From the NCBI RefSeq assembly GCF_965641715.1, contig NZ_OZ282453.1: a stretch of 64,000 nucleotides of DNA; one strand, written 5' to 3'. Each line of letters starts with the position of its first letter. Positions within the stretch are counted from its first letter, which is position 1. This document shows positions 2,849 to 24,863 of this stretch, piece after piece. The DNA is from Escherichia coli. Lineage in GTDB: Bacteria > Pseudomonadota > Gammaproteobacteria > Enterobacterales > Enterobacteriaceae. The notes beneath the pieces are model-generated. The model was not told the DNA's origin, did no database searches, and worked only from the letters and a program-made list of their open reading frames with translations. The position numbers and the translations under genes were made by a program.

Positions 2849-3199
<351 letters not shown>

Positions 3200-3228
3200 G
3201 ATTTCGCTTAAGCGACATCCTGTTAAGA

Positions 3229-3258
3229 AGGGCTGGCCAATTGGCTGGCCCTTTTTTT
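3229..3258 (+). terminator. Rho-independent terminator of the rpsP-rplS operon
   Basis: GC-rich hairpin GGGCTGGCCAATTGGCTGGCCC followed by a T7 run directly after the rplS stop. Confidence 0.6.
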
Positions 3259-3275
3259 ATCTGTTTGCTCGTGTT

Positions 3276-3758: not shown

Positions 3759-3773
3759 ATCGATATATCCTTG

Positions 3774-5508: not shown

Positions 5509-5657
5509 TCAGGGATCCCCACCATCTTCGCTCGAAATGCATCGATATTTTTTCAGAATGCTCATTAAAATATCATTATTTCATGCGGTCGTCATCATTG
5601 TGAGAAATAAAACATAATGAGTAAAATCTTATGTTTAATTTATTTGTGGGGTTTTAA

Positions 5658-6023
5658 TTAATTTAATCGTATTGCGCTGGCATTTTCATCAGCCCCTTTT
5701 TGCCATACTTCATGCAGTTGGCTGGCATTTTCAACATTGTTGCAGCTGGCAGGAAAGCTTTTACCGGAAAGTCCTCGGGCATAAGTAAAATCGGTCTGGC
5801 AAGTTTTCTTTTGTCCTTCGGCATATCCTTTAAGGTATAGACCGCGATCCGCCTGTGAATCGCTAAATGCATCGTCATCTTTTATGGCGCTGCCCGATAT
5901 CGCATCTTCCATACCAACATCATACCAGTCGGTGCTGGTCAAGGTTGGCGCGTGAGTATAAGGATCAATCTGGCATCCGCTAACCAGTAAAGCCAACAAG
6001 GGGGCGATAAACTTTTTCATCAT
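5658..6023 (-). CDS. yfiL: Lipoprotein YfiL
   Basis: Lipobox LLVSGCQ after a signal peptide; likely start at MMKKF (6023), whereas the track ORF extends to 6062 from a TTG. Confidence 0.75.
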   Translation of the reverse strand: MMKKFIAPLLALLVSGCQIDPYTHAPTLTSTDWYDVGMEDAISGSAIKDDDAFSDSQADRGLYLKGYAEGQKKTCQTDFTYARGLSGKSFPASCNNVENASQLHEVWQKGADENASAIRLN

Positions 6024-6068
6024 TTCTTTCTCCTTTTTCAAAGCATAGCGGATTGTTTTCAAAGGTGG

Positions 6069-6138
6069 TGTAAATTTATCTATACAGAATCAAGGATTGA
6101 AAGCGCGAATAAATTGCTTATGTAAAGAAAAATGTACG
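6069..6138 (+). promoter_or_regulatory. aroF promoter region with TyrR boxes
   Basis: TGTAAATTTATCTATACA (6069-6086) and TGTAAAGAAAAATGTACG (6121-6138) fit the TGTAAA-N6-TTTACA TyrR box pattern upstream of aroF. Confidence 0.5.
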
Positions 6139-6232
6139 AAATATGGATTGAAAACTTTACTTTATGTGTTATCGTTACGTCATCCTCGCTGAGGATCAAC
6201 TATCGCAAACGAGCATAAACAGGATCGCCATC

Positions 6233-7303
6233 ATGCAAAAAGACGCGCTGAATAACGTACATATTACCGACGAACAGGTTTTAATGACTCCGGCACAACT
6301 GAAGGCCGCTTTTCCATTAAGCCTGCAACAAGAAGCCCAGATTGCTGACTCGCGTAAAACCATTTCAGATATTATCGCCGGGCGCGATCCTCGTCTGCTG
6401 GTAGTATGTGGTCCTTGTTCCATTCATGATCCGGAAACTGCTCTGGAATATGCTCGTCGATTTAAAGCCCTTGCCGCAGAGGTCAGCGATAGCCTCTATC
6501 TGGTAATGCGCGTCTATTTTGAAAAACCCCGTACCACTGTCGGCTGGAAAGGGTTAATTAACGATCCCCATATGGATGGCTCTTTTGATGTAGAAGCCGG
6601 GCTGCAGATCGCGCGTAAATTGCTGCTTGAGCTGGTGAATATGGGACTGCCACTGGCGACGGAAGCGTTAGATCCGAATAGCCCGCAATACCTGGGCGAT
6701 CTGTTTAGCTGGTCAGCCATTGGTGCTCGTACAACGGAATCGCAAACTCACCGTGAAATGGCCTCCGGGCTTTCCATGCCGGTTGGTTTTAAAAACGGCA
6801 CCGACGGCAGTCTGGCAACAGCAATTAACGCTATGCGCGCCGCCGCCCAGCCGCACCGTTTTGTTGGCATTAACCAGGCAGGGCAGGTTGCGTTGCTACA
6901 AACTCAGGGGAATCCGGACGGGCATGTCATCCTGCGCGGTGGTAAAGCGCCGAACTATAGCCCTGCGGATGTTGCGCAATGTGAAAAAGAGATGGAACAG
7001 GCGGGACTGCGCCCGTCTCTGATGGTAGATTGCAGCCACGGTAATTCCAATAAAGATTATCGCCGTCAGCCTGCGGTGGCAGAATCCGTGGTTGCTCAAA
7101 TCAAAGATGGCAATCGCTCAATTATTGGTCTGATGATCGAAAGTAATATCCACGAGGGCAATCAGTCTTCCGAGCAACCGCGCAGTGAAATGAAATACGG
7201 TGTATCCGTAACCGATGCCTGCATTAGCTGGGAAATGACCGATGCCTTGCTGCGTGAAATTCATCAGGATCTGAACGGGCAGCTGACGGCTCGCGTGGCT
7301 TAA
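6233..7303 (+). CDS. aroF: Tyrosine-sensitive DAHP synthase
   Basis: 356-aa product [24 protein letters not shown]...; start at internal ATG 6233 of the track ORF. Confidence 0.95.
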
Positions 7304-7313
7304 GAGGTTTATT

Positions 7314-8435
7314 ATGGTTGCTGAATTGACCGCATTACGCGATCAAATTGATGAAGTCGATAAAGCGCTGCTGAATTTATTAGCGAAGCGTCTGGAACTG
7401 GTTGCTGAAGTGGGAGAGGTGAAAAGCCGCTTTGGACTGCCTATTTATGTTCCGGAGCGAGAGGCATCTATGTTGGCCTCGCGTCGTGCAGAGGCGGAAG
7501 CTCTGGGTGTACCGCCAGATCTGATTGAGGATGTTTTGCGTCGGGTGATGCGTGAATCTTACTCCAGTGAAAACGACAAAGGATTTAAAACACTTTGTCC
7601 GTCACTGCGTCCGGTGGTTATCGTCGGCGGTGGCGGTCAGATGGGACGCCTGTTCGAGAAGATGCTGACACTATCGGGTTATCAGGTGCGGATTCTGGAG
7701 CAACATGACTGGGATCGAGCGGCTGATATTGTTGCCGATGCCGGAATGGTGATTGTTAGTGTGCCAATCCACGTTACTGAGCAAGTTATTGGCAAATTAC
7801 CGCCTTTACCGAAAGATTGTATTCTGGTTGATCTGGCATCAGTGAAAAATGGACCATTACAGGCCATGCTGGCGGCGCACGATGGCCCGGTACTGGGGTT
7901 ACACCCAATGTTCGGTCCGGACAGCGGTAGCCTGGCAAAGCAAGTTGTGGTCTGGTGTGATGGACGTAAACCGGAAGCATACCAATGGTTTCTGGAGCAA
8001 ATTCAGGTCTGGGGCGCTCGGTTGCATCGTATTAGCGCCGTCGAGCACGATCAGAATATGGCGTTTATTCAGGCACTGCGCCACTTTGCTACTTTTGCTT
8101 ACGGGCTGCACCTGGCAGAAGAAAATGTTCAGCTTGAGCAACTTCTGTCGCTCTCTTCGCCGATTTACCGCCTTGAGCTGGCGATGGTCGGGCGACTGTT
8201 CGCTCAGGATCCGCAGCTTTATGCCGACATTATTATGTCGTCAGAGCGTAATCTGGCGTTAATCAAACGTTACTATAAGCGTTTCGGCGAGGCGATTGAG
8301 TTGCTGGAGCAGGGCGATAAGCAGGCGTTTATTGACAGTTTCCGCAAGGTGGAGCACTGGTTCGGCGATTACGCACAGCGTTTTCAGAGTGAAAGCCGCG
8401 TGTTATTGCGTCAGGCGAATGACAATCGCCAGTAA
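7314..8435 (+). CDS. tyrA: Bifunctional chorismate mutase / prephenate dehydrogenase (T-protein)
   Basis: 373 aa with N-terminal chorismate mutase and NAD-binding GGGGQMG prephenate dehydrogenase domain; follows aroF. Confidence 0.95.
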
Positions 8436-8437
8436 TA

Positions 8438-8476
8438 ATCCAGTGCCGGATGATTCACATCATCCGGCACCTTTTC
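8438..8476. terminator. Bidirectional terminator between convergent tyrA and pheA
   Basis: Inverted repeat CCAGTGCCGGATGATTCACATCATCCGGCACCTTTT lying between the two convergent stop codons. Confidence 0.6.
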
Positions 8477-8477
8477 A

Positions 8478-9638
8478 TCAGGTTGGATCAACAGGCACTA
8501 CGTTCTCACTTGGGTAACAGCCCAATACCTTCATTGAACGGGTGATTTCCCCTAACTCTTTCAATGCTTTTTGCATTTCCGCTGATTCAAGATTGGCCTG
8601 AATATCCAGATAAAACATCTCTTCCCATGGATTACCGTGAATCGGGCGTGATTCCAGACGGGTCATAATCAGATTGTGGTTGCGCAGTACCAGCAACGCT
8701 TCAACCAGCGCACCGGCTTGTTGCCCGGTCGCCATTAACAACGTCGTTTTCGCCGGAACCTGATCAGACACGTTAATGGCTTTACGCGCCAACACCACAA
8801 ATCGGGTGAAGTTTTGTCGCTGATTCGCTTCAATCCGCTCCAGTACCTGCAAACCGTACAAAGTGCCGCCAGCTTCGCTTCCCAACGCAGCAACATGCGG
8901 TGATTTTGCCTGTGCAACCTTTTCCATTGCCGCAGACGTACTTTCGGTATATTCAATCTTCCAGTGCGGATAACGATTAAGGAATTTGCTGCATTGCTGG
9001 AATGGCTGCGGATGGCTGTAGACCGTATTGATGGTGGATAAATCAGTAGTGCCGGAGACCAACAAACAATGGTCGATAGTTAACGTCATCTCGCCAACAA
9101 TCGACAAGCTGGTATGTTGCAGCAGATCGTAAACGTCATTTATGGCACCGGAGCTGGTATTTTCAATCGGTACGACGGCATAGTCGGCCTGGCCGGTTTC
9201 CACCTGATTAAAAATATCGGCAAATTTGGCGCAGCCACTTTCAATGAATTGCTCAAAGTGACGGGCAGCATACTGGCGCGCCGCAAGATGGGAATAAGAA
9301 CCTTTGGGGCCGAGAAAAGCGATGCGTGCTGAGTGCGGATTAATTTTATTGAGATGTTGTTGGAGCAAAGCCTGCTGAGTTAATACGGAATCTTCAATGA
9401 TGAGCTGGAACAGGCGAGTAATGTAATGGGCGTCCAGATGGTGCGCTTTACCGAGCGTAATTAATCTTTCCAGTAAATCGCGTTCACGATCAATATCACG
9501 TACCGGGCGATGCGAGAGCAGTTTGGCTTTTCCCACCTCGACGGCCAGTTCGCGCCGCTCTGCGAGTAATGCTAATAATTTTTCATCCAGCGCGCTGATT
9601 TTCTCTCGCAGCGCCAGTAACGGGTTTTCCGATGTCAT
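8478..9638 (-). CDS. pheA: Bifunctional chorismate mutase / prephenate dehydratase (P-protein)
   Basis: 386 aa beginning [22 protein letters not shown]...; chorismate mutase, prephenate dehydratase and ACT domains. Confidence 0.95.
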
Positions 9639-9660
9639 AGTGTTGCCTTTTTGTTATCAA

Positions 9661-9690
9661 TAAAAAAGGCCCCCCGATTTGGGAGGCCTT
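9661..9690 (-). terminator. pheA attenuator (leader terminator)
   Basis: GC-rich hairpin plus T-run on the minus strand between pheL and pheA. Confidence 0.6.
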
Positions 9691-9736
9691 ATTGTTCGTC
9701 TTCGCATTCTGTTTCATACGACGAAACGCCTCCCAT

Positions 9737-9784
9737 TCAGGGGAAGGTAAAAAAGAATGCGAAGAAAAACGGTGTGTGTTTCAT
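9737..9784 (-). CDS. pheL: pheA operon leader peptide (Phe-rich)
   Basis: 15-codon ORF MKHTPFFFAFFFTFP with seven Phe codons, upstream of the attenuator hairpin; absent from the ORF track because it is short. Confidence 0.85.
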   Translation of the reverse strand: MKHTPFFFAFFFTFP

Positions 9785-9838
9785 GTTTGTTTCCTTAAGT
9801 GACTTTAGTACAGTACCCGTACTGTTTTCACGCTGTCA

Positions 9839-9865
9839 ACAAAAAACGCGCCCGAAGGTGCGTTG
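9839..9865. repeat. Prophage attL direct repeat (int-proximal)
   Basis: ACAAAAAACGCGCCCGAAGGTGCGTTG; matches 45803-45829 at 26 of 27 positions. Confidence 0.6.
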
Positions 9866-9951
9866 TAAAACCCACTGAATTCAATGTTTTCCCTTTGTTT
9901 TCAGTGGGTTTTGTTATTGGTGGGGGGTACTGATTACCCTATAAAACCCAC

Positions 9952-10974
9952 TTATGTGGATGAAATGTGGATGCCTCCTTTTAACGGATTAAGTGAAATT
10001 GCATCCTGGAGGAAATCAGGAGCGAGGTGCGCATAGGTCATAGTTTGCTGGATCGTGGCGTGCCCCATAATTCGCTGGAGCGTAAGTATATTTCCTCCAT
10101 TAATCATAAAGTGAGCTGCAAAGGTATGGCGTAGAACATGTACTGCCTGCCCTTTTGGTAGATCAGGTTTAACACTGCGAAGCACCTTGCGATATTCCTC
10201 ATAATTGACGTCAAACAAAAGGCCGGATTTCTTTGTTTTGATCTCGCTAACAACTTCATCAGAGACAGGAATAATTCGAACTTTTCCGTTTTTAGTTTTG
10301 TTAAACGTCACGCGGTTATTGATGATGTGTTCCGCGCGCAGATTTTTCGCTTCTCCCCATCTCGCACCAGTACTGAGACAAAGTAGCGTAATCCGCCGGG
10401 CATCACCGCTTACTGCATCCAGTAATTTGGCAATTTCTTCCGTGGTGAGATACGTCATTTCGGGTGATTTTCGTTTCAAAGAGGGGAGGGCGCGGAGCGG
10501 ATTTTCTCCGTGAAATTCCCCGGCATTTGCCAGGAGTGTAAACATTCCTCCGAGATCCGACTCATCACGCCGAACAGTAGACTCTTTTACTCCCAAAGAT
10601 AAACGGGAGCTTCGATAAGCGGCCATGAAACGAGCATTAATCTGGCTAACCCTTGGATCATTCATTTCTTTGATGATTTTTTTCAACCTGGTTAGAACGC
10701 CGTTAGCATATGGCTTATTGCGTCCACCCAATTCCCACCATAACGGAAGCAGATCTGAGAGATGACGTTGCTCTGTTGGCTTTTCAAGCCATTCCTTATC
10801 GTGCATGTGGCTGAGAACATAACGCTCAAAGGCCACTGCATCTGCCTTTTTCTTAAAAATCCGCTGAATCCGACGTCCACTTCGGCCACGCGGTCTAACA
10901 TCCACTTTATACCGTCCACCATCGAGTGCTTTAATTGCCATTGGCAAGCCCTCCGGTGAAACGAGGAAAGACAT
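9952..10974 (-). CDS. int: Phage tyrosine integrase
   Basis: 340 aa with C-terminal tyrosine recombinase catalytic region (HxLRHT...Y); immediately inside attL. Confidence 0.9.
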   Translation of the reverse strand: MSFLVSPEGLPMAIKALDGGRYKVDVRPRGRSGRRIQRIFKKKADAVAFERYVLSHMHDKEWLEKPTEQRHLSDLLPLWWELGGRNKPYANGVLTRLKKIIKEMNDPRVSQINARFMAAYRSSRLSLGVKESTVRRDESDLGGMFTLLANAGEFHGENPLRALPSLKRKSPEMTYLTTEEIAKLLDAVSGDARRITLLCLSTGARWGEAKNLRAEHIINNRVTFNKTKNGKVRIIPVSDEVVSEIKTKKSGLLFDVNYEEYRKVLRSVKPDLPKGQAVHVLRHTFAAHFMINGGNILTLQRIMGHATIQQTMTYAHLAPDFLQDAISLNPLKGGIHISST

Positions 10975-14049: not shown

Positions 14050-14371
14050 GAAACCAGAGCATGCACACACAAAAAAACCGCTTGCCATGCCGCAATCAGT
14101 CAGGTTACATTTTCGCTGCACCTCATAAAACGGGTGCCGGGTTTCGCAGCCTGCTGACAACCAAAGCGCACAACCGCGCCAGCGGTTTTTTTGTGCGTAC
14201 TGTATTGCCACGTTTTTTTCGCGTCAGAATTATGGCGGGGCGTACGGGGCCGACTTCGGTCGGGCCGGGTTCTTTGGTTGCCGGTACTGCGAACCCCGTA
14301 CGTCTCGCCACCCACAGTTTCGCAGCTCTGGATGGTGAGTTTTCAAAACTTACAACCAAAGAGGCCACACC

Positions 14372-14602
14372 ATGGCAAACCGCAAACAGCACCGCGCTAT
14401 CGCGGAGCGTCGTCACATCCAGACTGAAATCAACCGCAGACTTTCCCGCGCATTCCGCGTCGCTAAAATCATGCACATCAATATGCTGCATGAGCGTAGC
14501 TGCGAACTTTCAAACCTCTACTCATCCGCTGTTTTCAGCTATCTGGCGGATGATCTGCGCGAGCTTCAACAGCTCATCCAGCAGCAAAACAAACTCCATT
14601 AA
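14372..14602 (+). CDS. Hypothetical early protein
   Basis: 76-aa basic ORF after a ~320-bp non-coding stretch. Confidence 0.45.
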   Translation: MANRKQHRAIAERRHIQTEINRRLSRAFRVAKIMHINMLHERSCELSNLYSSAVFSYLADDLRELQQLIQQQNKLH

Positions 14603-14674: not shown

Positions 14675-15040
14675 ATGATTCTCGCCAACGACTTTCTTGA
14701 ATACCTGCTCAACACAGAGCGTGATCTTGCCGCTCGCGTACGTGATCGTTATGACATGTATCTGAAATCCCTGCCTGTACCGCAGCTCGCTGACGGAAAG
14801 ATTGTTATTGATGGTCGCTACATGATTGACAGCCACGAGGGAAATTACAGGCTTTACCGCATTGAAGGTGGCACCCCGTCCGTTATTGGCATTTACCAGC
14901 GCCCATCCTCTGCAATCGTCGATGTGATTGCCGACAGCATCCGCATCACACATCGCCATGCCGACACAGAAGACACCGTGCTGGAAATTCAGCGGCTGGC
15001 TGCCGTCTGCCGCGACACCCTGAATGGCATGACGAAGTAA
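14675..15040 (+). CDS. Hypothetical early protein
   Basis: 121-aa ORF immediately upstream of gene A. Confidence 0.5.
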   Translation: MILANDFLEYLLNTERDLAARVRDRYDMYLKSLPVPQLADGKIVIDGRYMIDSHEGNYRLYRIEGGTPSVIGIYQRPSSAIVDVIADSIRITHRHADTEDTVLEIQRLAAVCRDTLNGMTK

Positions 15041-15046
15041 ATCACT

Positions 15047-17869
15047 ATGACGGCAGAGTACATCAGGGACTGGCAACAACCGCGCCACGCAGTGGGACGT
15101 GAAGGAACGGGGATCCCCGTTCCTGAATCCGCGCTTTCCTCCTGGCTGGATGCCTACCGGGCAGAGAACGAGCGCCGCCAGGAAATGGCTGATGCGGCGT
15201 TCTCCGCCACGCCGCTGGGCAACCTGATTAATAAAAGCCTGGATGCACAGGAAAAACAGGACAAAACCATCACACTGGCAGGAGACGCCAGAAAACAGGT
15301 ACGCGGTGCGGTGGATGAAGCCATGGCCTCGCTGCGCCTGCTGCCGTCCTATCTGCGCGATCCGCTTATTCGCCACCTCTCCTTCCTGCGCAAAAAACAG
15401 GAAGCCGATCGCCGGAAAGGCAAAAAGAGCTGGCAGGCTGAACGCTACGCGCGCGGAACCCTGCGCAAAATATTCGAACGTCTGGACCGCACCGACCACC
15501 GCTGGCTGACACCGGGTTATCGCTCCCTTGCCGGACGCGAACGCCTGGATGATTTGCTTTACCTGCCGCAGCTCAACAAGCACCAGATACAGACGCTGGC
15601 CACCATGACGGCGGCGATGTTCAGCAGCACCTTCGAAAAACTCTGCGATGGCTTTGGCGCGACTGATGGCGAGCTGACCATGGATGTAACGCTGAAGGCG
15701 TATCAGATGCTGGCCCGCATGGCGTTACACCTGCACGCCATGCCTCCGCATTATGATGCACTGACAACAGACAAAGACCGGAGGAACGAACCGGACACGG
15801 AGCTGCTGCCGGGCGCAATCCTTCGCCTGACCTGTGCGGAATGGTGGAAACGCAAACTGTGGCTGTTACGTTGCGAGTGGCGGGAAGAACAACTCCGCGC
15901 CGCCTGTCTGGTTTCCAGAAAAACATCGCCCTATCTGAGCCAGGACGCGTTAAGCGAGTTTCGCGCACAGCGCGAGAAAACACGCGATTTCCTGAAAAGT
16001 TTCATGCTGGAAAACGAAGACGGGTTCACGATTGATCTCGAGACGGTGTATTACGCGGGAGTAAGTAACCCGGTTCATCGTAAGGCAGAAATGATGGCCA
16101 CCATGAAGGGGCTGGAACTTCTGGCCGAAGCCCGTGGCGACAAAGCGGTGTTTCTGACTGTCACCTGCCCGTCAAAATACCACGCCACAACAGAGAACGG
16201 TCATCCGAATCCCAAATGGAACGGGGCCACCATGCGCGACTCCAGCGATTACCTGGTTAACACGTTTTTTGCGGCGGTCCGCAAGAAACTGAACCGCGAC
16301 GGCCTGCGCTGGTATGGCATCCGCACGGTGGAGCCTCACCATGACGGCACCGTGCACTGGCATATGATGGTCTTTGCTCATCCGGAAGAAATCGACACCA
16401 TTGTGTCCCACACCCGCGATATTGCCATTCAGGAAGATCGTCACGAGCTGGGTGATGATATTACCCCACGCTTTAAGGCGGAGTACGTCGACGGCTCAAA
16501 AGGCACACCGACCAGCTACATCGCCACCTACATCGGGAAAAACCTGGACAGCCGTGCCGTGGATGGCATCGACCCGAAAACGGGCAAGCCACGCGTTGAC
16601 CACGAAACCGGAAAATCAATGGCCGAGAGCGTGGAACGCGCCATCGGCTGGGCGCGCCTTCATCGGGTCCGCCAGTTCCAGTTCTTTGGCATCCCCTCCC
16701 GTCAGGTGTGGCGTGAACTGCGCCGCCTTGCCAGCCAGATGGCTCGCAACCCGGAAGGACCGCAACGGCTGAAGGATGACGCAATGGACGCGGTTCTTGC
16801 TGCCGCTGATGCCGGATGTTTTGCCACCTACATAGAGAAACAGGGCGGCGTACTTGTTCCACGCAAGGACTACCTGATTCGCACCGCCTACGACCTCGCA
16901 GATGAGCTGAACGATTACGGTGAACAGAGCGTACAGATTTACGGGATCTGGTCACCGCTCATCGGGGAGTCTTCCCGCGTATGCACGCATCCGGACAACT
17001 GGAAGCTGGTAAGACGCAAACCGGAAGCGGAAGACAGCGCCCGCGAAAATGGTTTTGACCTTCAGGGCGGCCCTGCCGCCCCTTGGACTCGTGGCAATAA
17101 CTGTCCCCGTGTACAGGAAACAGGCAACAGCGGGACAGAACAGTCGAAAGAACGGCCAGCACCGTGGCCGCAGCTTCCTGACGGCGTTGACGTGAACGAA
17201 TGGATGCGCTCACTGAAACGGCACGAACGCCGGGCGCTGATGCGTTCGCTTCGTGACAAACAGGCAAAAAACAGCAGTGATGAAATGCAGAGCTGGACAC
17301 AGAGCCGCAAACAGCCACGGCCTTTGCCTGATAACCACGAATTACTCGCTAAAGAATGGCGGGAGTCTGCTGAATCTCTCGGCCTGCATATCGGTGAACA
17401 ACAGATGCAGCACCTGTTACGGGGCGGCAGTCTGTACGTTGACGGCAGCATCATTGCACCGCAGGGATTTGAAATTGTACGCAAACCGGATACCCGCCCG
17501 GACAGCCGAATCACGCAGCTCTGGCAGCGCCTGAGCCGTAATCATGGCGTAAGCAGCACGGAGATCCGCCATAACCCGGTCGCCAGCTATCTGGCACAGC
17601 TGGGGGCATCAGACCCTGAAGCCGCCGCACGCCTGGCATCCACACTTCAGCAGGACCAGAACACCATGAAAACACCCGTTACCGTGCTTTCTGACATGCT
17701 GCGCGCCATCCGCGACGCAGAGCACGCACAGAGAATCAGTGAAACCACTGAACGCGCCAGCCGCAAAGCAGACCTGCTGCGGGGTGGCCTGACCAGTGGA
17801 AACAAAAAACAGACAGAAACGGGATTCACAAATCCCATAAATGAGCAAAAAACGTGCCGCGATATATGA
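15047..17869 (+). CDS. Rolling-circle replication initiator (P2 gpA-like endonuclease)
   Basis: 940 aa with a HUH-type motif (VHWHMMVF); position after the early genes as in P2. Longer than P2 A as I recall it. Confidence 0.85.
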   Translation: MTAEYIRDWQQPRHAVGREGTGIPVPESALSSWLDAYRAENERRQEMADAAFSATPLGNLINKSLDAQEKQDKTITLAGDARKQVRGAVDEAMASLRLLPSYLRDPLIRHLSFLRKKQEADRRKGKKSWQAERYARGTLRKIFERLDRTDHRWLTPGYRSLAGRERLDDLLYLPQLNKHQIQTLATMTAAMFSSTFEKLCDGFGATDGELTMDVTLKAYQMLARMALHLHAMPPHYDALTTDKDRRNEPDTELLPGAILRLTCAEWWKRKLWLLRCEWREEQLRAACLVSRKTSPYLSQDALSEFRAQREKTRDFLKSFMLENEDGFTIDLETVYYAGVSNPVHRKAEMMATMKGLELLAEARGDKAVFLTVTCPSKYHATTENGHPNPKWNGATMRDSSDYLVNTFFAAVRKKLNRDGLRWYGIRTVEPHHDGTVHWHMMVFAHPEEIDTIVSHTRDIAIQEDRHELGDDITPRFKAEYVDGSKGTPTSYIATYIGKNLDSRAVDGIDPKTGKPRVDHETGKSMAESVERAIGWARLHRVRQFQFFGIPSRQVWRELRRLASQMARNPEGPQRLKDDAMDAVLAAADAGCFATYIEKQGGVLVPRKDYLIRTAYDLADELNDYGEQSVQIYGIWSPLIGESSRVCTHPDNWKLVRRKPEAEDSARENGFDLQGGPAAPWTRGNNCPRVQETGNSGTEQSKERPAPWPQLPDGVDVNEWMRSLKRHERRALMRSLRDKQAKNSSDEMQSWTQSRKQPRPLPDNHELLAKEWRESAESLGLHIGEQQMQHLLRGGSLYVDGSIIAPQGFEIVRKPDTRPDSRITQLWQRLSRNHGVSSTEIRHNPVASYLAQLGASDPEAAARLASTLQQDQNTMKTPVTVLSDMLRAIRDAEHAQRISETTERASRKADLLRGGLTSGNKKQTETGFTNPINEQKTCRDI

Positions 17870-17945
17870 AGCGCGCACAAAACAGGCAAAAGCGGGATTT
17901 AAAAATCCTGTAAACGATTAATTAATCAACATAAGGAAAAGCGAC

Positions 17946-18905
17946 ATGAAAATTTGTATCGACGACGGCTCCACCAACATCAAGCTGGCATGGACTGAGA
18001 ACGGCGAACGCCGCAACGCCATCAGCCCGAACAGCTTCAAGTCGGAATGGTCTGCGCCGTTCGGTGGCTCGCAGCCCGCGAACTACATGCTTGATGGCGT
18101 GCGCTATGGTTTTGATCCGGTCAGCGATCGCTTTGTCCAGACGACCGACACGCAATACCAGTACAGCGATGTGAATGTCATTGCCATTCATCACGCGCTG
18201 GTCAAATCAGGCATCACGCCACAGGAGGTGGATGTGGTTGTCACCCTGCCATTGAGCGAGTATTTCGACACAAACGCACAGCCGGACATGGCCAACATCA
18301 GCCGCAAAAAAGCGAACGTTATGCGCCCGGTGGAGTACCAGAACGGCGAAACATTCACTATCCGTAACGTACGGGTTATGCCTGAATCCATTCCGGCTGG
18401 CTTTAAAGCACTGGCTGACATGAGTCCGCTTGAATCCCTGCTGATTGTGGATTTGGGCGGAACCACACTGGATGTGGCAAAGGTTCAGGGGCAACTGGCA
18501 GGTATCAGCCAGGTGTTTTGCGATCCACACGTAGGCGTTTCCCTGATGGCCGATGCCGTACTGTCGGTGATGGCCACTAACGGTATGCGTATCAGTCACC
18601 ACATCGCCAATACCATTATCGAACATCGCCATGATGAAGCCTGGTTGCGCCAGCACATCCACAATGACGCGCATTACGCCAGCCTGATGGCGGTTATTCG
18701 TGAAAAGGAAGAAACACTGAAACAACGCGTGATCCGCGCGCTGGCGGTTTTTTCGGGTTACGGGCGGGTGATGGTTGTCGGTGGCGGGGCGGAGATTGTG
18801 GCACCCGCTATCCGCGAAGCCTGCGGAGTTAATGCGACTTTCATCGCGGACGGGGTGCCACAGTTTGCTCTGGTTAATGGGCTGTACGCAATGGACAAGG
18901 AGTAA
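17946..18905 (+). CDS. ParM/StbA-like actin-type segregation ATPase
   Basis: N-terminus MKICIDDGSTNIKLAW... and later ...YSDVNVIAIHHAL... closely resemble plasmid R1 ParM (MLVFIDDGSTNIKLQW...YSDVNVVAVHHAL) as recalled. Confidence 0.85.
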   Translation: MKICIDDGSTNIKLAWTENGERRNAISPNSFKSEWSAPFGGSQPANYMLDGVRYGFDPVSDRFVQTTDTQYQYSDVNVIAIHHALVKSGITPQEVDVVVTLPLSEYFDTNAQPDMANISRKKANVMRPVEYQNGETFTIRNVRVMPESIPAGFKALADMSPLESLLIVDLGGTTLDVAKVQGQLAGISQVFCDPHVGVSLMADAVLSVMATNGMRISHHIANTIIEHRHDEAWLRQHIHNDAHYASLMAVIREKEETLKQRVIRALAVFSGYGRVMVVGGGAEIVAPAIREACGVNATFIADGVPQFALVNGLYAMDKE

Positions 18906-18909
18906 ACCA

Positions 18910-19221
18910 ATGACGACTCCAACCAGACGGATAAGTTTCTATCTGAAGCCCGCCGCCGTCAAGAACGAAGGTGAAGCATGCGCCTGGCTGGACAGCCTTA
19001 CACCAGAAGCGCGCAAAAGCGGCCAACGCGTGGCTTTTCTGGCCGGGCTGGCACTTCTGAAAATGAATCCGGCAGAGGCTTACCGACTGGCTGCATGGGC
19101 TGATGATGAAGCGTTATCAGTGACACAAACCAGGACAGAACGCCCCGCGTCACAGCCAGTATCAACCGCACAGATAACCAGTCAGATGGCCGGAAATATC
19201 CGGGCGTTATTTCCCGAATAA
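18910..19221 (+). CDS. ParR/StbB-like centromere-binding adaptor
   Basis: 103 aa from ATG 18910 (AAGGAG RBS); RRISFYLKP...LDSLTPEARKSGQRVAFLAGLAL and C-terminal NIRALFPE parallel R1 ParR; 4 nt after the ParM stop. Confidence 0.7.
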   Translation: MTTPTRRISFYLKPAAVKNEGEACAWLDSLTPEARKSGQRVAFLAGLALLKMNPAEAYRLAAWADDEALSVTQTRTERPASQPVSTAQITSQMAGNIRALFPE

Positions 19222-19284
19222 CACAACATCAGGGCGCATCCGCCCTGATGACTTTAACCCGGGAACATAAACAAGGGGGACACA

Positions 19285-19620
19285 ATGCAACGCATTGACA
19301 GAGAAAAAGCGCAGCGACTGATTGAGCGGATGGAAGCGCTGGCGAAAGAAGAAAATGTCAACATCCAAAAAATAGCTGAATGTGGCCAGATAGTTCTTCG
19401 TCGTGAAAAAGACCTCAAACAACTGATGTCTGGCGAAACCAGCAAAACATGGACTTCAGGTGAGGAGACGATTTATTGCAGCTTCTGCAATAAATCCCAG
19501 TACGAAGTCACAAAGGTGATTGCCGGACCGTCTGTTTACATCTGCAATGAGTGCGTTGATTTGTGCAATGAAGTTATCAGGAGAGAAGTGACAGACCATG
19601 AAGAAAAAACGCATGAATGA
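19285..19620 (+). CDS. Protein with C-terminal ClpX-type C4 zinc-binding domain
   Basis: C-terminal [39 protein letters not shown] is near-identical to the ClpX N-domain as recalled; N-terminal ~65 aa unrelated and helical. Confidence 0.75.
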
Positions 19621-19786
19621 CGAATTTGACGGCTTTTAATTTTATCGGGGCGCACTGTCGCCCTGCATGGAGAAAAACAATAAAAAAGATGAATAACTGC
19701 TCATGTCAGACGCGCTGCGGGCAAGTCTGGCACCCTGCCCTGTCTCCGCAAAGGCTGTTGTCTTAACACGACAGAGTATGCCAGCA

Positions 19787-20194
19787 TTAAATATAATCTT
19801 CTTCGTAGTCGCTGATTAATTCATTGCCATAATCAGACAGCAATTTCAAAGCAAAGGTAACTTCCTCAAGGGTAGCTATCCCCATTGCTGAAAACACCGT
19901 TAATTTAACCAGCAGCAGGGAGTTTGAAAGTTCGGAAGAGTTCATCATTAAAAATATTGATGCAGCCTGAAAAGCTGTGCGTTTATTCCCATCATGAAAG
20001 GCATGAGCCTTGGCTATACCAATCAAATACATAGCAGCCAGAGCATGAATATCATCAACCCCTTCATAGTAGTGTAGTGTCCTGACGCGATTTAAAGCAC
20101 CTTCAAGTAGCCCGTCATTGGCATTTCCGCTCTGGGGTAAAGTTTCAGCATGGATACGTTCTACTTGTTCTTTTGACAAAAACACTATGTCCAT
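19787..20194 (-). CDS. Doc-family (Fic-fold) toxin
   Basis: 135 aa with Fic/Doc active-site motif HAFHDGNKRTAF; downstream of and overlapping the antitoxin gene. Confidence 0.8.
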   Translation of the reverse strand: MDIVFLSKEQVERIHAETLPQSGNANDGLLEGALNRVRTLHYYEGVDDIHALAAMYLIGIAKAHAFHDGNKRTAFQAASIFLMMNSSELSNSLLLVKLTVFSAMGIATLEEVTFALKLLSDYGNELISDYEEDYI

Positions 20195-20550
20195 CAGTTA
20201 TCCTCAAGCTTTTTAATGATATCCGCATGTTTTTCTCTTGTACGCTTCATTGCATCTTCAAAAGACAATCCTTTTTTTCTCTGTGCGACAAGAGCTGGAT
20301 GACGTTTTTCCAGATCTCTCACTGCATTTATTAAGAGTGGTTGCTTCATTTTGTTTATTTGATCCCGCAGTTTTTTGGTTTTGCCAAGGACAGCCCGTAT
20401 TTCAGGACTAAGATCAGAACCAGCAAGAACAACATCCTTCCCTCCCTGCGCCGTGATAACGACACTGCCACCGGAAGAAAGGTAATCCAGAATTTCACTC
20501 AGGTTCTCACGAAATTCATCATCAGTTACAGTTTTCATATTCATTTCCAT
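20194..20550 (-). CDS. Phd/YefM-like antitoxin with C-terminal extension
   Basis: N-terminus ...MKTVTDDEFRENLSEILDYL...VVITAQGGKDVVLA fits the Phd/YefM pattern; stop overlaps the Doc start. Confidence 0.65.
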   Translation of the reverse strand: MEMNMKTVTDDEFRENLSEILDYLSSGGSVVITAQGGKDVVLAGSDLSPEIRAVLGKTKKLRDQINKMKQPLLINAVRDLEKRHPALVAQRKKGLSFEDAMKRTREKHADIIKKLEDN

Positions 20551-20624
20551 TATGCACGCCCATAACGTAAGTATAACGGCTTGTTGGGCAGTAATAACAC
20601 CGCCATATTTTCATTTTATACACC

Positions 20625-20650
20625 GCACAATAGTGCACAAATTTGCACAA
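20625..20650 (-). promoter_or_regulatory. Putative operator of the phd-doc promoter
   Basis: Three GCACAA hexamers at 10-bp phasing (20625, 20635, 20645) overlapping -10/-35-like elements upstream of the antitoxin gene. Confidence 0.4.
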
Positions 20651-21074
20651 TTTTTTTGAACAACTTTTTACCCTTCCGGCCCGCGTGGCGACTGGATCCG
20701 TCAAGGATCCGTGCGTGCACAAAAAAACGCGTTTTTTCTGCGCGCAGGTGACGGGGGAACAGCCCGCGTTTCAGGGGGTAAATAGCATTCCCTGAACGAT
20801 GTCGCAGCGACACAACAGAATGGCTGTATTTCTCACACTGAGCGTGAAAAAGGCGTGAGGGCTTTTGATTTGATGGGGTGACAGATAAGGCCGTCAAAAT
20901 CGCACTGAGGCGGCAAGAACATGCAGTCAACGCGGTGGGATTGCGTAAGAGCCTGACCGTCGATGATGGCGATAAGCTGGAAGACGTCGTGAAATTATCT
21001 GATTGATACAGGAGCTGGAGAGTCGGGGCATAAATTTTTTATGCCCCGGCGAAGCAGCAGACAAGCGAAGCGCG

Positions 21075-22121
21075 TCAGGATGTGGGCTGGGTGTCCAGCA
21101 GTGCGTAAGGGTTAAAGCGGATCACCTCTTCGCCAAGCCAGTCATTGATATGCTTCATGGCCTCCATGACGGGCATCAGCTCGTTAATTGCGTAAACCCG
21201 CGCTGCCTTCTCCACATCACCAAACGCACTTTTTTCGCCCGGCATCGCCCCCATCAGTTGCGGCGGAACGCGGTGCGCAGCCAGCACATCATCACGGGAT
21301 GCCGCCTTAACATTCATGAACTCATCCTTTGCGGTGATCTGCTGGAACGGCAAAATTTGCACACCTTCTTTGCCCCCGTTGGGCGCGTGAATGAGCACGT
21401 TTTTAAATGCACCACCACCACGCGCACCCTGTAGCGTTTCCTTCAGGGAGTCCATGCTTTCGCGGTTTACCTGCGCTGCACCGATGTAGATGATGCACCC
21501 GGCGTGGGATCCATTGTCGTAGTACAGTTTTCTGAACATGTCCGCCGAATGAGACAGGCTGGCCGAGAGTAATGCGCCAAGATATTCCGGCATGCCGTAA
21601 ATTTCCTGGTTAATGTCCGGATTCATCAGGTGGCACACTTTGCCAGGGCGAAACTGAAACGCGTCCTTGCCATCCTGCACATACCACCATGATTCAAGAT
21701 CGCTTCCGCGTCGCATGTATTTCGCCAGTGCGTGCCGTAATTTAAGTGGTTCGCCGAGCATATTGCTCCGAAGCTCAAGGAATGCGTTACCGAACACAAA
21801 CCAGTCCAGCGCCAGCGCCGAGAAATCCTGCCGGGAAAGCAGCGGGTGCGGGATGTAGCAACCGAGCAATACATTGCGCTTAAAGTAAAGCGCAGACTGA
21901 TGCCAGGACGTTTGCCGGGCGGCTCTTGCCAGACCGTACCAGTCCACCGGGGTTTCATACCACCGCCCGTTATCAGCACAGTACATATTGTCCAGCAGGT
22001 CATGCCCGGTCAGGCGGTAAGGACCATCAAATGTGAATGCACTGAGCGACGATTCTTTCCTGAGCGCATCAGCGAGATCAATGCGTGAACTCATGCGCAC
22101 TTTTTTATTTTTTCTGCTCAT
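21075..22121 (-). CDS. Portal protein (P2 gpQ-like)
   Basis: 348 aa, co-oriented and overlapping with the large terminase gene as in the P2 Q-P operon. Confidence 0.85.
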   Translation of the reverse strand: MSRKNKKVRMSSRIDLADALRKESSLSAFTFDGPYRLTGHDLLDNMYCADNGRWYETPVDWYGLARAARQTSWHQSALYFKRNVLLGCYIPHPLLSRQDFSALALDWFVFGNAFLELRSNMLGEPLKLRHALAKYMRRGSDLESWWYVQDGKDAFQFRPGKVCHLMNPDINQEIYGMPEYLGALLSASLSHSADMFRKLYYDNGSHAGCIIYIGAAQVNRESMDSLKETLQGARGGGAFKNVLIHAPNGGKEGVQILPFQQITAKDEFMNVKAASRDDVLAAHRVPPQLMGAMPGEKSAFGDVEKAARVYAINELMPVMEAMKHINDWLGEEVIRFNPYALLDTQPTS

Positions 22122-23872
22122 CAGAACTCCATAACCGTGAAACGCTCGTTTTCTCCTTCGCCGCCAATTGGTTCGTTAATGACAGCAAGCATGGTTGCCC
22201 ACGCAAGGTCGCCGTGGCTGATCCCCCTCGCGCGGTCCGTTTCGTAAGTGATAAAGCCGCCCGGTGTTTTCACCTTACGCACGGCGTTAAAGGCCGCGAC
22301 CAGCTCGCGTTCGGCGCGATCGTATTCCCACCGCCCGGCACGCATTATTTGCAGCATTTTCAGTACCAGCGACCGTTTTGATGACAGCGTGAAGGTGTAC
22401 GGAATAGCGGCAGGGAAAAACCGTTTCACTATCTGATAAACAGCCTCCCCGTTCCCGCCCGTCACATCAATGCCGATGTGTTCCACGTTGTAGCGACACG
22501 TGAACTCTTCAATGACTCTGGCCTGTTCTTCAAACTCCAGCCCCTGAACGCGTCGCGTCTCCACCGTTCGAAAACGGCCACCAGGAACAGCCGGAGGAAC
22601 CACCACGGACACCGCGCCACTGTCGCCGTTTCCACTGCTGCCGTTTGCGTCATACCCAATCCATACCGGACGATTCCCCATCGGGCGGGGAGCAAAAGGT
22701 TTCCAGTCTTTCCAGTCGTCGTATCCGTCAACACCGCAGCCAATCAGGATATTCAGGTTAAATGCCGATTCCCCTTCGCGGACAAACTCACACATATAGA
22801 GATTGCGGAACTCGTCTTCGGTGTTTTCATCACGAATTTCATCAATATCGGTGTGTTTCCAGCCGTGATTAACCACATCTTCCAGCGTGACAATTTGCCG
22901 CCACGTCCGGTCGGGGCAGATAAGCCCGTTATGCAGCGTTTTCCAGTCCACAGAAAAACGCTGGCGTTTATGCGCGGCCTTTTTCTCGTTCCAGCGGTCG
23001 CCGTTCCAGTAGACGTATGCCTCGTGCGTTTCGGTTGATGGCGTGGAGAAGTAGGTGCGTCGCAGCCCGCTGAGGGTTGCCATAGCGCCAGCCACCTTGC
23101 GCAGTTCAGCAAAGCGACTGACCCAGAAAAATTCATCAAAATAAAAATTGCCTGTGTAGGACTGTGCCGTCGCAGCAGAAGTGCCGAGAAAATGCAGCTC
23201 TGCGCCGTTGGAGAGGATGATTTTATCGCCCCCTTTCAGCTCCACATCAACTTCAGATGCAGCCTTCTGAATAATGCTTTTAAACTGGAACGCCTGACGA
23301 CGCGACGCAGACAAAAAAATCTGGTTACGCTGGTAAGGTTGCGCCACATCGTCACGCAGCGCCATCAGCAGTGCTTCCTGTGCAAAATACCAGGTCGCCC
23401 CAATCTGTCGGGATTTCAGGATCATCCTGTTACGTATCCCGGCTTCCCTGCAAAGGGTCAGGGAGTCAAACCAGCCCCGCTGATGCCACTCCAGCCTGCT
23501 GATGATTTTTTCCCGCAGTGCGGCAATCTGTTCCGGCGTGAAATGATTTTTAAGCTTTTTCGCCCGGCCTTTCTTTCCTGTGGCCGTCGCATCCGGCTGG
23601 CCATCATGCAGTTTTTTAAGCTGCCGGGTCAGCAGGTCTATTTCCTTAAAGTCACCGCCTGTTTTATTCTGTTTTTCAGTAAGCTGGATGAGGCGCGCAT
23701 CGATGGACTGCGTGACACGCTGCACGGGTGGCGTTTCATCCCACTGGTCGCGTTTTTTCCACGCATAAATCGTGTTCGGGTTTATTCCCATCAGACGTGA
23801 TATTTCAGCGGGCGGATAACCCTGCCAGTAAAGTTGTCGCGCACGCTGGCGCACAAAAGCGTCCTGAATCAT
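22121..23872 (-). CDS. Terminase large subunit (P2 gpP-like ATPase)
   Basis: 583 aa with N-terminal HTH and terminase ATPase/nuclease regions; divergent from the capsid operon. Confidence 0.9.
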   Translation of the reverse strand: MIQDAFVRQRARQLYWQGYPPAEISRLMGINPNTIYAWKKRDQWDETPPVQRVTQSIDARLIQLTEKQNKTGGDFKEIDLLTRQLKKLHDGQPDATATGKKGRAKKLKNHFTPEQIAALREKIISRLEWHQRGWFDSLTLCREAGIRNRMILKSRQIGATWYFAQEALLMALRDDVAQPYQRNQIFLSASRRQAFQFKSIIQKAASEVDVELKGGDKIILSNGAELHFLGTSAATAQSYTGNFYFDEFFWVSRFAELRKVAGAMATLSGLRRTYFSTPSTETHEAYVYWNGDRWNEKKAAHKRQRFSVDWKTLHNGLICPDRTWRQIVTLEDVVNHGWKHTDIDEIRDENTEDEFRNLYMCEFVREGESAFNLNILIGCGVDGYDDWKDWKPFAPRPMGNRPVWIGYDANGSSGNGDSGAVSVVVPPAVPGGRFRTVETRRVQGLEFEEQARVIEEFTCRYNVEHIGIDVTGGNGEAVYQIVKRFFPAAIPYTFTLSSKRSLVLKMLQIMRAGRWEYDRAERELVAAFNAVRKVKTPGGFITYETDRARGISHGDLAWATMLAVINEPIGGEGENERFTVMEF

Positions 23873-23993
23873 TGCTCCCCCTGAGTAATTACAGGAAGAT
23901 TACCCGCGCGCGAAACCGTTCTCCTTAACCCCCTGTTCTGGCCATTTTCTTACAACAAAAGCCCTTTGTATCAGCCTGTTACGCTTTGCCATC

Positions 23994-24863
23994 ATGACTG
24001 AAGAACCAGTCAGAGGGGCAAAAACTATGGCTAATGAAAAAAAGACATCACGCAAAAAGTTTCGCGTGGCTGTCTCCGGATCAACTGTTGATGGCCGCGA
24101 AATCAGTCCGGTGCATCTGCGTGAAGCTGCTGAGAACTTCGACCCGGATGTTTACGCTGCCCGCGTGAACGTTGAGCACTATCTCTCGCCATGCCCGTCA
24201 AGCGAATTTTCCGCAATGGGCGATGTCACCGCACTGAGTACGGAAGACATTACGGAAGGTCCGCTGGCCGGGCGTACTGCGCTGTATGCAGAAATCGAAC
24301 CGACCGAGCGCATGAAGAAGCTTGTCGCTGACGGCAAGAAAATTTATTCCAGTATCGAACTGCACCCGCAGTTCTCCGTTAACGGGCGCGCCTATCTGGT
24401 CGGGCTGGCGATGACCGACACCCCGGCAAGCCTGGGCACTGAACGTCTGAAATTCACGGCACAGCAACGTCAGGCAGTGATGAAATTCAACAGTGTCCAG
24501 GGTGAGGCTCCGCTTATCTCCGAAGCCATCGAGTCTGAAATCATCGAAATGGCAGAACAACGCCAGGAAGAAGGCACCCAGTGGTTTAACCGCGTAATGG
24601 GAATTATTGGCCGTGGCCGCAAAGCGGATGACGCCAGTTTTTCCCGTATTCAGGAAGCGGTGGAAGGCGTCGCAACGTCACAGGCCGACATTATCGACCG
24701 TTTTAATGCACTGGAAGCCCGCCATAAGCAGGACCGTCAGAAAATCACGTCACTGACCACAGAGCTGACAGCACTGAAGGAAAAACTGCGCACGCAGGAC
24801 GGCGATCCGCAGAACCGGTTCACCGCAACGGGCGCAGCCTCCGACCAACTGGCTGACTTCTGA
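23994..24863 (+). CDS. Capsid scaffolding protein (gpO-like)
   Basis: 289 aa, first gene of the head operon directly before the major capsid gene; coiled-coil-rich C-terminus. Confidence 0.8.
   Translation: MTEEPVRGAKTMANEKKTSRKKFRVAVSGSTVDGREISPVHLREAAENFDPDVYAARVNVEHYLSPCPSSEFSAMGDVTALSTEDITEGPLAGRTALYAEIEPTERMKKLVADGKKIYSSIELHPQFSVNGRAYLVGLAMTDTPASLGTERLKFTAQQRQAVMKFNSVQGEAPLISEAIESEIIEMAEQRQEEGTQWFNRVMGIIGRGRKADDASFSRIQEAVEGVATSQADIIDRFNALEARHKQDRQKITSLTTELTALKEKLRTQDGDPQNRFTATGAASDQLADF

What the first reader, a model, noticed from the sequence alone, without database searches (positions are those of the whole stretch)
15047..17869. Oversized replication initiator A with its C-terminus overlapping the repeat element
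The gpA-like protein is 940 aa, whereas I recall P2 A as about 760 aa. The extra C-terminal region is Arg/Gln-rich and its coding sequence contains the first copy of the repeat upstream of parM. The extension could be an added domain, or replication and partition control may be linked.
Basis: inference. Interest (0 to 1): 0.3.

Follow-up and report, generated by a model that had tools for sequence, protein, structure and literature searches.

The report
Ordinary P88-type phage replication initiator
The 940-residue replication initiator is the normal size for the P88-like group of P2-related prophages, which is found in about a quarter of E. coli genomes. Its last ~30 codons are an unconstrained read-through into a swappable plasmid-partition cassette, not a link between replication and partition.

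Summary
ORF 15047-17869 (+) encodes a 940-aa gpA-type initiator, and copy 1 of a 42-nt repeat (17803-17844) lies inside its 3' end. Copy 2 (17876-17917) lies just upstream of parM.

The size is not unusual.
- Fourteen phage records of the P88/Xuanwuvirus group encode the same protein at 86-98% identity.
- The 3' end plus parM start is found in 1307 of 5426 complete E. coli genomes.
- gpA-family proteins range up to ~943 aa, and P2 A (761 aa) is at the short end.

The excess over P2 A has four parts:
- ~35 aa at the N-terminus;
- C-terminal helices shared with other long gpA proteins (to ~aa 868);
- a lineage-specific helix (aa ~877-911) under purifying selection;
- a disordered ~30-aa tail.

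The tail begins at the left boundary (17766-17780) of the known gpA-gpQ cargo hotspot. Phages with 96-97% identical A genes carry a methylase plus ATPase cassette instead of parMR. They have a different tail of about the same length and no repeats.

The repeats therefore belong to the parMR cassette, most likely as its centromere/operator. The predicted origin nick (~17085) lies about 720 bp upstream of the repeats. A coupling of replication and partition is not supported.

The parts
15047..17869 (+). Gene A: gpA-type rolling-circle replication initiator, 940 aa
   Evidence: ORF; Pfam PF05840 E 2e-131; 97.7% identical to P88 gp16 'replication endonuclease'; 30% identical to P2 A across aa 77-800
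15581..16555 (+). Phage_GPA catalytic region (aa 179-503). It holds the HUH motif H437-W-H439 (16355-16363) and the tyrosine pair Y491/Y495 (16517-16531).
   Evidence: Pfam; motifs align with P2 A HWH and Y450/Y454; H437, W438, H439, Y491 and Y495 are at least 90% conserved among 89 homologues; AF2 pLDDT above 90 for aa 90-660
17075..17112 (+). Predicted ori core inside gene A, with the nick at or next to 17085 (CCCCTT|GGACTCGTGGCAATAACTGT). It is encoded in a disordered linker of the protein (aa 676-703).
   Evidence: Aligns to the annotated P2 nick site at 29892, GCGCCTC|GGAGTCCTGTCAATAACTGT. The first ~57 nt of the 100-nt extract (roughly window 17062-17118) are nearly invariant in ~90 related loci. 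The core is identical in an otherwise unrelated P2-like A gene. It occurs once in the window. pLDDT is below 50 for aa 676-703.
17324..17551 (+). Small C-terminal alpha/beta domain (aa ~760-835). P2 A stops after its beta-hairpin (~aa 814). Helix 817-833 is present in most other gpA proteins.
   Evidence: AF2 pLDDT 86-97; C-terminal alignment A3
17546..17650 (+). Segment aa ~834-868 (GVSSTEIRHNPVASYLAQLG...), shared only with a subset of long gpA proteins
   Evidence: Aligned in P0035, P0044 and P0032
17651..17767 (+). P88-lineage-specific segment (aa 869-907), mostly one long helix (aa ~877-911)
   Evidence: No homologue outside close relatives; pLDDT ~92 in the C-terminal model; purifying selection across aa 801-907, 5/10/30 variable sites by codon position
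17768..17869 (+). Cassette-derived tail of A (aa 908-940) plus the stop codon. This is read-through into the cargo.
   Evidence: Homology with methylase-cargo phages ends at 17766. The alternative tail is QKRGKQHFSNQNDDEKKQLQSWICLFHHEG. pLDDT ~30. Variable sites 11/6/12, so no third-position bias.
17767..20624 (.). Cargo of the gpA-gpQ hotspot in this prophage: parC-like repeats, parM, parR, a ClpX-type zinc-finger protein, and doc/phd
   Evidence: blastn junctions at 17766 and 20625 against L096 and L104; hotspot described in PMC9122126
17803..17844 (+). Repeat copy 1 (parC-like block 1) with palindrome 17820-17837. It lies inside the A ORF.
17876..17917 (+). Repeat copy 2 (parC-like block 2) with palindrome 17893-17910. 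It is intergenic and ends 29 nt before the parM ATG.
17946..18905 (+). parM, actin-like partition ATPase (319 aa)
   Evidence: Pfam StbA_N E 4e-82 and ParM C-terminal domain E 3.5e-68; purifying selection 40/37/147
18910..19221 (+). parR/stbB-type adaptor (103 aa)
   Evidence: Pfam Plasmid_stab_B E 1.6e-24; the N-terminal segment TRRISFYLKP is invariant in the ParR alleles listed (the first four residues vary in a few: MTTS, MATL)

Best explanation
Gene A encodes the standard HUH/two-tyrosine rolling-circle initiator of a P88-like (Xuanwuvirus, Peduoviridae) prophage integrated in an E. coli chromosome. By homology with P2 A, it nicks an origin inside its own gene at about 17085.

Its 940-aa length is the lineage norm. 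Relative to P2 A it has ~35 more N-terminal residues and a longer helical C-terminus. Part of that C-terminus is shared with other long gpA proteins, and one helix is lineage-specific and under selection.

The last ~30 codons are not part of the functional protein. The left recombination boundary of the gpA-gpQ cargo hotspot lies inside the ORF, at 17766-17780. Whatever cassette sits there therefore supplies the tail until a stop codon happens to occur.

In this prophage the cassette is a type II partition locus. The two 42-nt repeats are its parC-like centromere/operator (inferred). ParR dimers would bind the CGGGATT-N4-AATCCCG palindromes, repress parMR and seed ParM filaments. Copy 1 falls inside the A reading frame only because the cassette abuts the conserved part of A.
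For: Shown:
- ORF, domain and catalytic motifs.
- Proteins of the same length in 14 phage records. Of the ~75 IMG/VR loci that hold the parMR-type 3' end, all but about six with truncated or interrupted ORFs give 931-948 aa. RefSeq annotations give 940-947 aa.
- The 3' end plus parC plus parM start is present at 80% coverage or more in 1307 of 5426 complete E. coli genomes, with 1775 places on chromosomes and 2 on plasmids.
- gpA-family lengths reach 943 aa, and the PHROG profiles are 852-855 positions long.
- The junction inside the ORF is seen three ways: DNA identity of 94-100% drops to ~50% after window ~17746, blastn alignments end at 17766, and the multiple alignment shows the same break.
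- Phages with the alternative cargo have A proteins of 941-947 aa with an unrelated tail and no repeats.
- The tail is predicted disordered and lacks a codon-position bias, whereas aa 801-907 and parM show one.
- The repeats co-occur strictly with parMR. The palindrome arms are conserved while the 4-nt centre varies.
- Plasmid relatives of this ParMR have iteron blocks just upstream of parM. In pOXA-48-type IncL/M the blocks are 73 bp apart, the same spacing as here; in IncI-gamma/K1 they are 51-61 bp apart.
- The hotspot, and partition systems in about a quarter of P2-like phages, are already described (PMC9122126).

Inferred:
- ParR binding to the repeats.
- The nick position.
Against: - No sigma-70-like promoter reached the scan threshold between 17000 and 19700. 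The operator role of the repeats therefore rests on position and analogy. By direct reading, the best candidate is only TTTAAA(17898)-17 nt-ATTAAT(17926), matching 8 of 12 positions.
- The repeats are two long units with palindromes, not an obvious array of ten 11-bp iterons as in R1 parC (my recollection, not tested here).
- Both alternative tails are ~30 aa long. This could hint at a length constraint rather than pure accident.
- An 18-nt stretch 33 nt after the predicted nick (17118-17135) matches copy 2 at 17 of 18 positions.
Confidence: 0.8

Rival explanations
1. The C-terminal extension is an acquired functional domain that couples replication to partition, for example by A contacting ParR/parC, or by ParR bound within the A ORF controlling A.
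For: Copy 1 of the repeat lies physically inside the A ORF. aa 801-907 are under purifying selection. An ori-adjacent stretch resembles the repeats.
Against: The same A, 96-97% identical up to 17766, works with an unrelated methylase/ATPase cassette that lacks the repeats. The overlapping tail is disordered and unconstrained. In most P88-like relatives the ori-adjacent stretch reads AAACGGACAACAACGGGA, which by my count from the sequences printed matches their copy 2 at only 15 of 18 positions. It is absent next to the identical ori core of another P2-like phage. My own estimate is that a 15/18 match is expected about once per 64 kb by chance.
Confidence: 0.06
2. The tail is short but functional, as a cassette-supplied C-terminal peptide that tunes A stability or activity. 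Alternatively, translation through copy 1 displaces ParR and couples early-operon expression to parMR de-repression.
For: Two unrelated cassettes both give tails of ~30 aa. The stop codon position is conserved in all parMR-type loci.
Against: Variable sites show no codon-position bias (11/6/12), and variability (0.29) is similar to the intergenic gap (0.24). pLDDT is ~30. No homologues beyond close relatives.
Confidence: 0.1
3. The repeats are not a centromere. They are operators for another regulator, or a replication-related element such as a secondary A-binding or termination site.
For: ParR binding was not tested. The architecture differs from the textbook R1 parC.
Against: The repeats are present only with parMR and absent with the other cargo. 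They lack the ori core, which occurs once in the window. The two-block layout, 73-bp spacing and position 29 nt before parM resemble the closest plasmid ParMR locus. The ParR segment TRRISFYLKP is invariant, as are the palindrome arms.
Confidence: 0.04

Closest known systems
Escherichia phage P88 gp16 'replication endonuclease' (YP_009113059; Xuanwuvirus P88, NC_026014)
   Same: 940 aa, 97.7% identical over the full length. Same neighbours: a 121-aa ORF upstream, parM and parR downstream, then the ClpX-type zinc-finger gene, portal and terminase.
   Different: P88 lacks the doc/phd pair found at window 19618-20624. There are small differences in the repeat palindromes.
Bacteriophage P2 A protein (NP_046795, 761 aa) and its ori
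   Same: HUH motif and tyrosine pair align (window Y491/Y495 to P2 Y450/Y454). The ori nick core lies inside the gene at the equivalent place. Homology runs across aa 77-800.
   Different: Only 30% identity. P2 A lacks ~35 N-terminal residues and everything after the C-terminal beta-hairpin (~aa 814 here). In P2 the gene is followed by orf91 and old/tin rather than parMR.
gpA-gpQ cargo hotspot of P2-like phages (Rousset et al. 2022, PMC9122126)
   Same: The locus lies between A and the portal gene. The cargo is swappable, and the paper reports a putative plasmid-partition system in about a quarter of P2-like phages.
   Different: The text I searched describes the hotspot as lying between the two genes. 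Here the left boundary lies inside the A ORF, so each cassette supplies the last ~30 codons of A.
Type II ParMRC partition loci of enterobacterial plasmids (closest found: IncL/M pOXA-48-type and IncI-gamma/K1)
   Same: ParM (StbA_N plus ParM C-terminal domain), a ParR of the Plasmid_stab_B family, and repeat blocks directly upstream of parM. The blocks are 73 bp apart in p72_LM_OXA48.
   Different: ParM is only ~52% identical. The repeat units here are 42 nt with an 18-bp palindrome rather than plain 10-bp direct iterons. Block 1 is inside a coding sequence. The locus is chromosomal, in an integrated prophage.

Membership tests
Phage_GPA / HUH two-tyrosine rolling-circle initiators (P2 gpA family) | Sequence match to the family profile | tested here: met
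   PF05840, E 2.3e-131, 438 bits against a cut-off of 31.4, full profile 1-321; PHROG 91 'nicking at origin of replication', E 4e-275
Phage_GPA / HUH two-tyrosine rolling-circle initiators (P2 gpA family) | HUH metal-binding motif and a Y-x3-Y catalytic tyrosine pair | tested here: met
   H437-W-H439 and Y491-IAT-Y495 align with P2 A HWH and Y450/Y454 and are at least 90% conserved in 89 homologues. That these P2 tyrosines are catalytic is from my knowledge of the P2 literature and was not checked here.
Phage_GPA / HUH two-tyrosine rolling-circle initiators (P2 gpA family) | Origin with the nick sequence inside gene A | tested here: met
   Window 17081-17104 aligns to the annotated P2 nick site and is an island of DNA conservation across divergent A genes. 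Nicking itself was not tested.
Phage_GPA / HUH two-tyrosine rolling-circle initiators (P2 gpA family) | HUH nuclease fold | tested here: inconclusive
   The best PDB fold matches are AAV Rep origin-binding domains and the Helitron transposase, but only at E 0.07-0.3. No solved relative was found by sequence.
Xuanwuvirus (P88-like Peduoviridae) | Close identity and synteny with P88 | tested here: met
   A is 97.7% identical in protein. DNA is 97% identical over 15005-19617 and 20625-24497. The gene order of the P88 record matches.
Type II (ParMRC) partition system | Actin-like ParM ATPase | tested here: met
   PF06406 E 4e-82 and PF21523 E 3.5e-68
Type II (ParMRC) partition system | ParR adaptor encoded directly downstream | tested here: met
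   PF10784 E 1.6e-24. The gene starts 5 nt after parM ends.
Type II (ParMRC) partition system | parC centromere: repeated ParR sites upstream of parM that overlap its promoter | tested here: inconclusive
   Two conserved 42-nt repeats with palindromes lie 73 bp apart, ending 29 nt before parM, and are present only with parMR. No promoter reached the scan threshold, and ParR binding cannot be tested with these tools.
P2-like gpA-gpQ cargo hotspot | Lies between A and the portal gene, with unrelated cassettes at the same junctions in near-identical phages | tested here: met
   Junctions at 17766 and 20625. The alternative cargo is a D12 methylase plus an AAA_15/AAA_21 ATPase. Described in the literature.

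The most novel reading that the evidence does not exclude
The cargo hotspot starts inside the essential A gene, so every cassette swap rewrites the C-terminus of the replication initiator. In the parMR variant, half of the centromere/operator is transcribed and translated as part of A. Early-operon expression during induction could then strip ParR from parC, or a ParR-parC complex could act as a roadblock that insulates the cargo. Either way, the lytic switch would be coupled to the partition system. That system might help excised or newly infecting circles persist as plasmids, as the one 34.5-kb circular record could suggest.
Probability: 0.08. Interest if true: 0.4.

Novelty: already known. 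Interest (0 to 1): 0.12.

Why it matters
Mostly as a clarification. The length difference from P2 A is a lineage trait, not an anomaly, and the overlap with the repeat is a by-product of where cargo cassettes recombine.

The one useful detail for annotators and for studies of P2-like hotspots is that the left hotspot boundary sits ~100 nt inside the annotated A ORF. Two consequences follow:
- Gene-based delimitation ('between gpA and gpQ') misses the first parC block.
- The last ~30 residues of annotated gpA proteins are cassette-specific.

Tried and rejected
- **Homologues of the C-terminal 144 aa.** A search of 5.8 billion proteins returned, apart from two weak hits (P0022, 58% identity, and P0023), only fragments of close relatives at 72-100% identity. 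tblastn against 50,697 phage records found only the 14 P88-group records. The extension is therefore not a recognisable fused gene or known domain.
- **Domain search on aa 701-940.** Pfam at E up to 1 gave nothing credible.
- **Fold searches.** The full model and the C-terminal model against PDB gave no match at E 0.001 or better. A PDB sequence search found nothing.
- **Promoter scan of 17000-19700.** No site reached the threshold.
- **Ori-adjacent motif.** I considered that 17118-17135 (17 of 18 identical to repeat copy 2) links ori to parC, and rejected it as probably chance. It is not conserved in most relatives and is absent beside the same ori core in another phage.
- **L004 and L005.** These first looked like independent modules carrying the A C-terminus. 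They are deletion derivatives of prophages with the methylase cargo.
- **Literature.** The P88 paper (PMC5285337) says nothing about A length or partition genes.
- **Not done.** 186 A was not fetched.

Full report
**Observation**

The window holds an ATG-initiated ORF at 15047-17869 (+) of 940 aa. Pfam places the Phage_GPA domain at aa 179-503 (E 2e-131). Downstream lie parM (17946-18905) and a Plasmid_stab_B/ParR gene (18910-19221).

A 42-nt direct repeat occurs at 17803-17844 and 17876-17917, 79% identical and 73 nt apart. Copy 1 is inside the A ORF. Copy 2 is in the gap before parM. Each copy contains the palindrome CGGGATT-N4-AATCCCG, which is found nowhere else in the 64 kb.

P2 A is 761 aa. 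The Arg/Gln enrichment of the extension is marginal: R 10.0% against 9.5%, and Q 7.1% against 4.4%.

**Context**

Positions 1-9000 are E. coli core chromosome, including dgcN, tyrA, aroF, ffh and trmD. A Phe leader lies at 9660-9785 and an rRNA operon at 52-57 kb. Between about 9.9 and 45.7 kb the window is collinear with P88-like phage genomes.

The A protein is 97-98% identical over its full length to the annotated replication proteins of Escherichia phage P88 (Xuanwuvirus, Peduoviridae) and relatives. Fourteen phage records match at 86-98% identity.

**Is 940 aa unusual?**

No.
- Of the ~75 IMG/VR loci that hold the parMR-type 3' end, all but about six with truncated or interrupted ORFs encode 931-948 aa.
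- RefSeq annotations give 940, 946 and 947 aa.
- The segment 17000-17950 is present at 80% coverage or more in 1307 of 5426 complete E. coli genomes, almost always on the chromosome.
- Among 50%-identity cluster representatives, gpA-family proteins range from ~500 to 943 aa, with several at 840-900.
- The two matching PHROG profiles are 852 and 855 positions long.

**Anatomy of the excess over P2 A**

P2 A residues 42-740 align with residues 77-800 here. The HUH motif (H437-W-H439) and the tyrosine pair (Y491, Y495, matching P2 Y450 and Y454) are conserved.

A full-length AlphaFold model (mean pLDDT 82.6) and a C-terminal model show these regions:

| Residues | Prediction |
|---|---|
| 90-660 | confident core |
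| 676-703 | disordered linker |
| ~760-835 | small alpha/beta domain |
| 844-873 | helices |
| ~877-911 | one long helix |
| ~911-940 | disordered tail (pLDDT ~30) |

An alignment of C-termini shows the following:
- P2 A ends just after the beta-hairpin (~aa 814).
- Most gpA proteins add the 817-833 helix.
- A subset (P0035, P0044, P0032) continues to ~aa 868.
- Only the P88 lineage has aa 869-940.

Nothing outside close relatives matches the last 144 aa. No Pfam domain or solved fold matches the C-terminal region.

**Origin**

The annotated P2 nick site reads GCGCCTC|GGAGTCCTGTCAATAACTGT. It aligns with window 17075-17104, CCCCTT|GGACTCGTGGCAATAACTGT, which places the nick next to 17085.

This core is nearly invariant in ~90 related loci. 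It is identical in an otherwise unrelated P2-like A gene. It occurs once in the window. It is encoded by the disordered linker of the protein. It lies ~720 bp upstream of repeat copy 1, and so is not in the extension.

**The tail belongs to the cargo**

Phages that carry a D12 DNA methylase plus an AAA_15/AAA_21 ATPase instead of parMR have A genes 96-97% identical to this one. That identity holds up to 17766, after which it falls to background. It resumes at 20625, near the portal gene.

Their A proteins are 941-947 aa. They end in an unrelated tail, QKRGKQHFSNQNDDEKKQLQSWICLFHHEG, where this window has RGGLTSGNKKQTETGFTNPINEQKTCRDI. They lack both repeats.

Among 43 haplotypes, variable sites by codon position are as follows:

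| Region | Position 1 / 2 / 3 | Reading |
|---|---|---|
| A aa 801-907 | 5 / 10 / 30 | purifying selection |
| parM | 40 / 37 / 147 | purifying selection |
| A tail, aa 908-940 | 11 / 6 / 12 | no codon bias |

Overall variability of the tail (0.29) is like that of the intergenic gap (0.24).

The locus between A and the portal gene is the known P2-like cargo hotspot. Rousset et al. report that about a quarter of P2-like phages carry a putative plasmid-partition system there (PMC9122126). That figure agrees.

**The repeats as parC (inferred)**

- They occur only with parMR.
- The palindrome arms are conserved across variants, while the 4-nt centre varies: CACA, CACG, TCAG or TAAA.
- The ParR segment TRRISFYLKP is invariant across otherwise diverse ParR alleles.
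- The closest plasmid ParMR loci are IncL/M pOXA-48-type and IncI-gamma/K1, with ParM ~52% identical. They have repeat blocks just upstream of parM. In the IncL/M plasmid the blocks are 73 bp apart, as here.
- No consensus promoter was detected, and ParR binding is untested.

**Verdict**

The protein is the normal initiator of a very common, already sequenced prophage group. The real C-terminal extension is a lineage trait of unknown role. The overlap with the repeat is a read-through across the hotspot boundary.

A functional link between replication and partition is not supported, though it is not strictly excluded. The only mildly new detail is that the hotspot boundary, and half of the presumed centromere, lie inside the annotated A ORF.

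Noticed in passing
window 14118-14315: Rfam finds isrK (14118-14192, 66 bits) and a C4 antisense RNA (14228-14315, 87 bits) just upstream of the ORF that P88 annotates as 'derepression protein' (window 14372-14602). This looks like a P1/P7-style c4-antirepressor immunity module inside a P2-like early region.
   Followed up: no
window 17118-17135: AAACAGGCAACAGCGGGA, 33 nt after the predicted ori nick, matches repeat copy 2 at 17 of 18 positions. Most relatives have AAACGGACAACAACGGGA here, and the stretch is absent beside the same ori core in another P2-like phage. It is probably chance, but this is not proven.
   Followed up: partly
window 17075-17112; L105 3001-3036: The ori core is an island of near-identical DNA shared by A genes that otherwise have no detectable nucleotide similarity. 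It could serve as a marker for predicting origins in P2-like phages.
   Followed up: partly
window 18910-19221 and loci L006-L085: ParR is highly polymorphic among otherwise 95-98% identical phages: 61% of its sites vary, against 23% in parM. There are two main allele types. The N-terminal segment TRRISFYLKP is invariant, the C-terminal tip (NI[RQ]ALFPE and similar) is conserved, and the middle is hypervariable.
   Followed up: partly
window 19618-20624: A doc (Fic/DOC, 19787-20194, minus strand) and phd-like (20194-20550, minus strand) toxin-antitoxin pair sits inside the hotspot. It is absent from P88 itself, so the cargo is exchanged in sub-modules.
   Followed up: partly
window 19285-19620: A 111-aa protein with a ClpX-type C4 zinc finger (PF06689, E 3e-17) follows parR and is shared with P88. 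Its function is unknown.
   Followed up: no
window 15047-15350: The first ~300 nt of gene A are a second mosaic segment. Variants encoding 946-aa proteins are only 39-55% identical here and 85-100% identical afterwards.
   Followed up: no
L103 (NZ_CP148288.1, 34,461 bp circular): A complete P88-like genome (int, cox, A of 946 aa, parM, parR, structural genes) is deposited as a circular E. coli 'plasmid'. It could be an induced or excised phage circle, or a genuine plasmid state. Only 2 of 1777 matching places in complete E. coli genomes are on plasmids.
   Followed up: no
L004, L005 (also L090, L098): Several contigs carry prophage remnants in which most of A is deleted, leaving the last 68-132 codons of A next to the methylase/ATPase cargo.
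   Followed up: partly
window 9660-10974: The prophage integrase gene (9952-10974, minus strand) lies ~170 nt from the Phe leader (9660-9785), so the attachment site is next to pheL/pheA.
   Followed up: no
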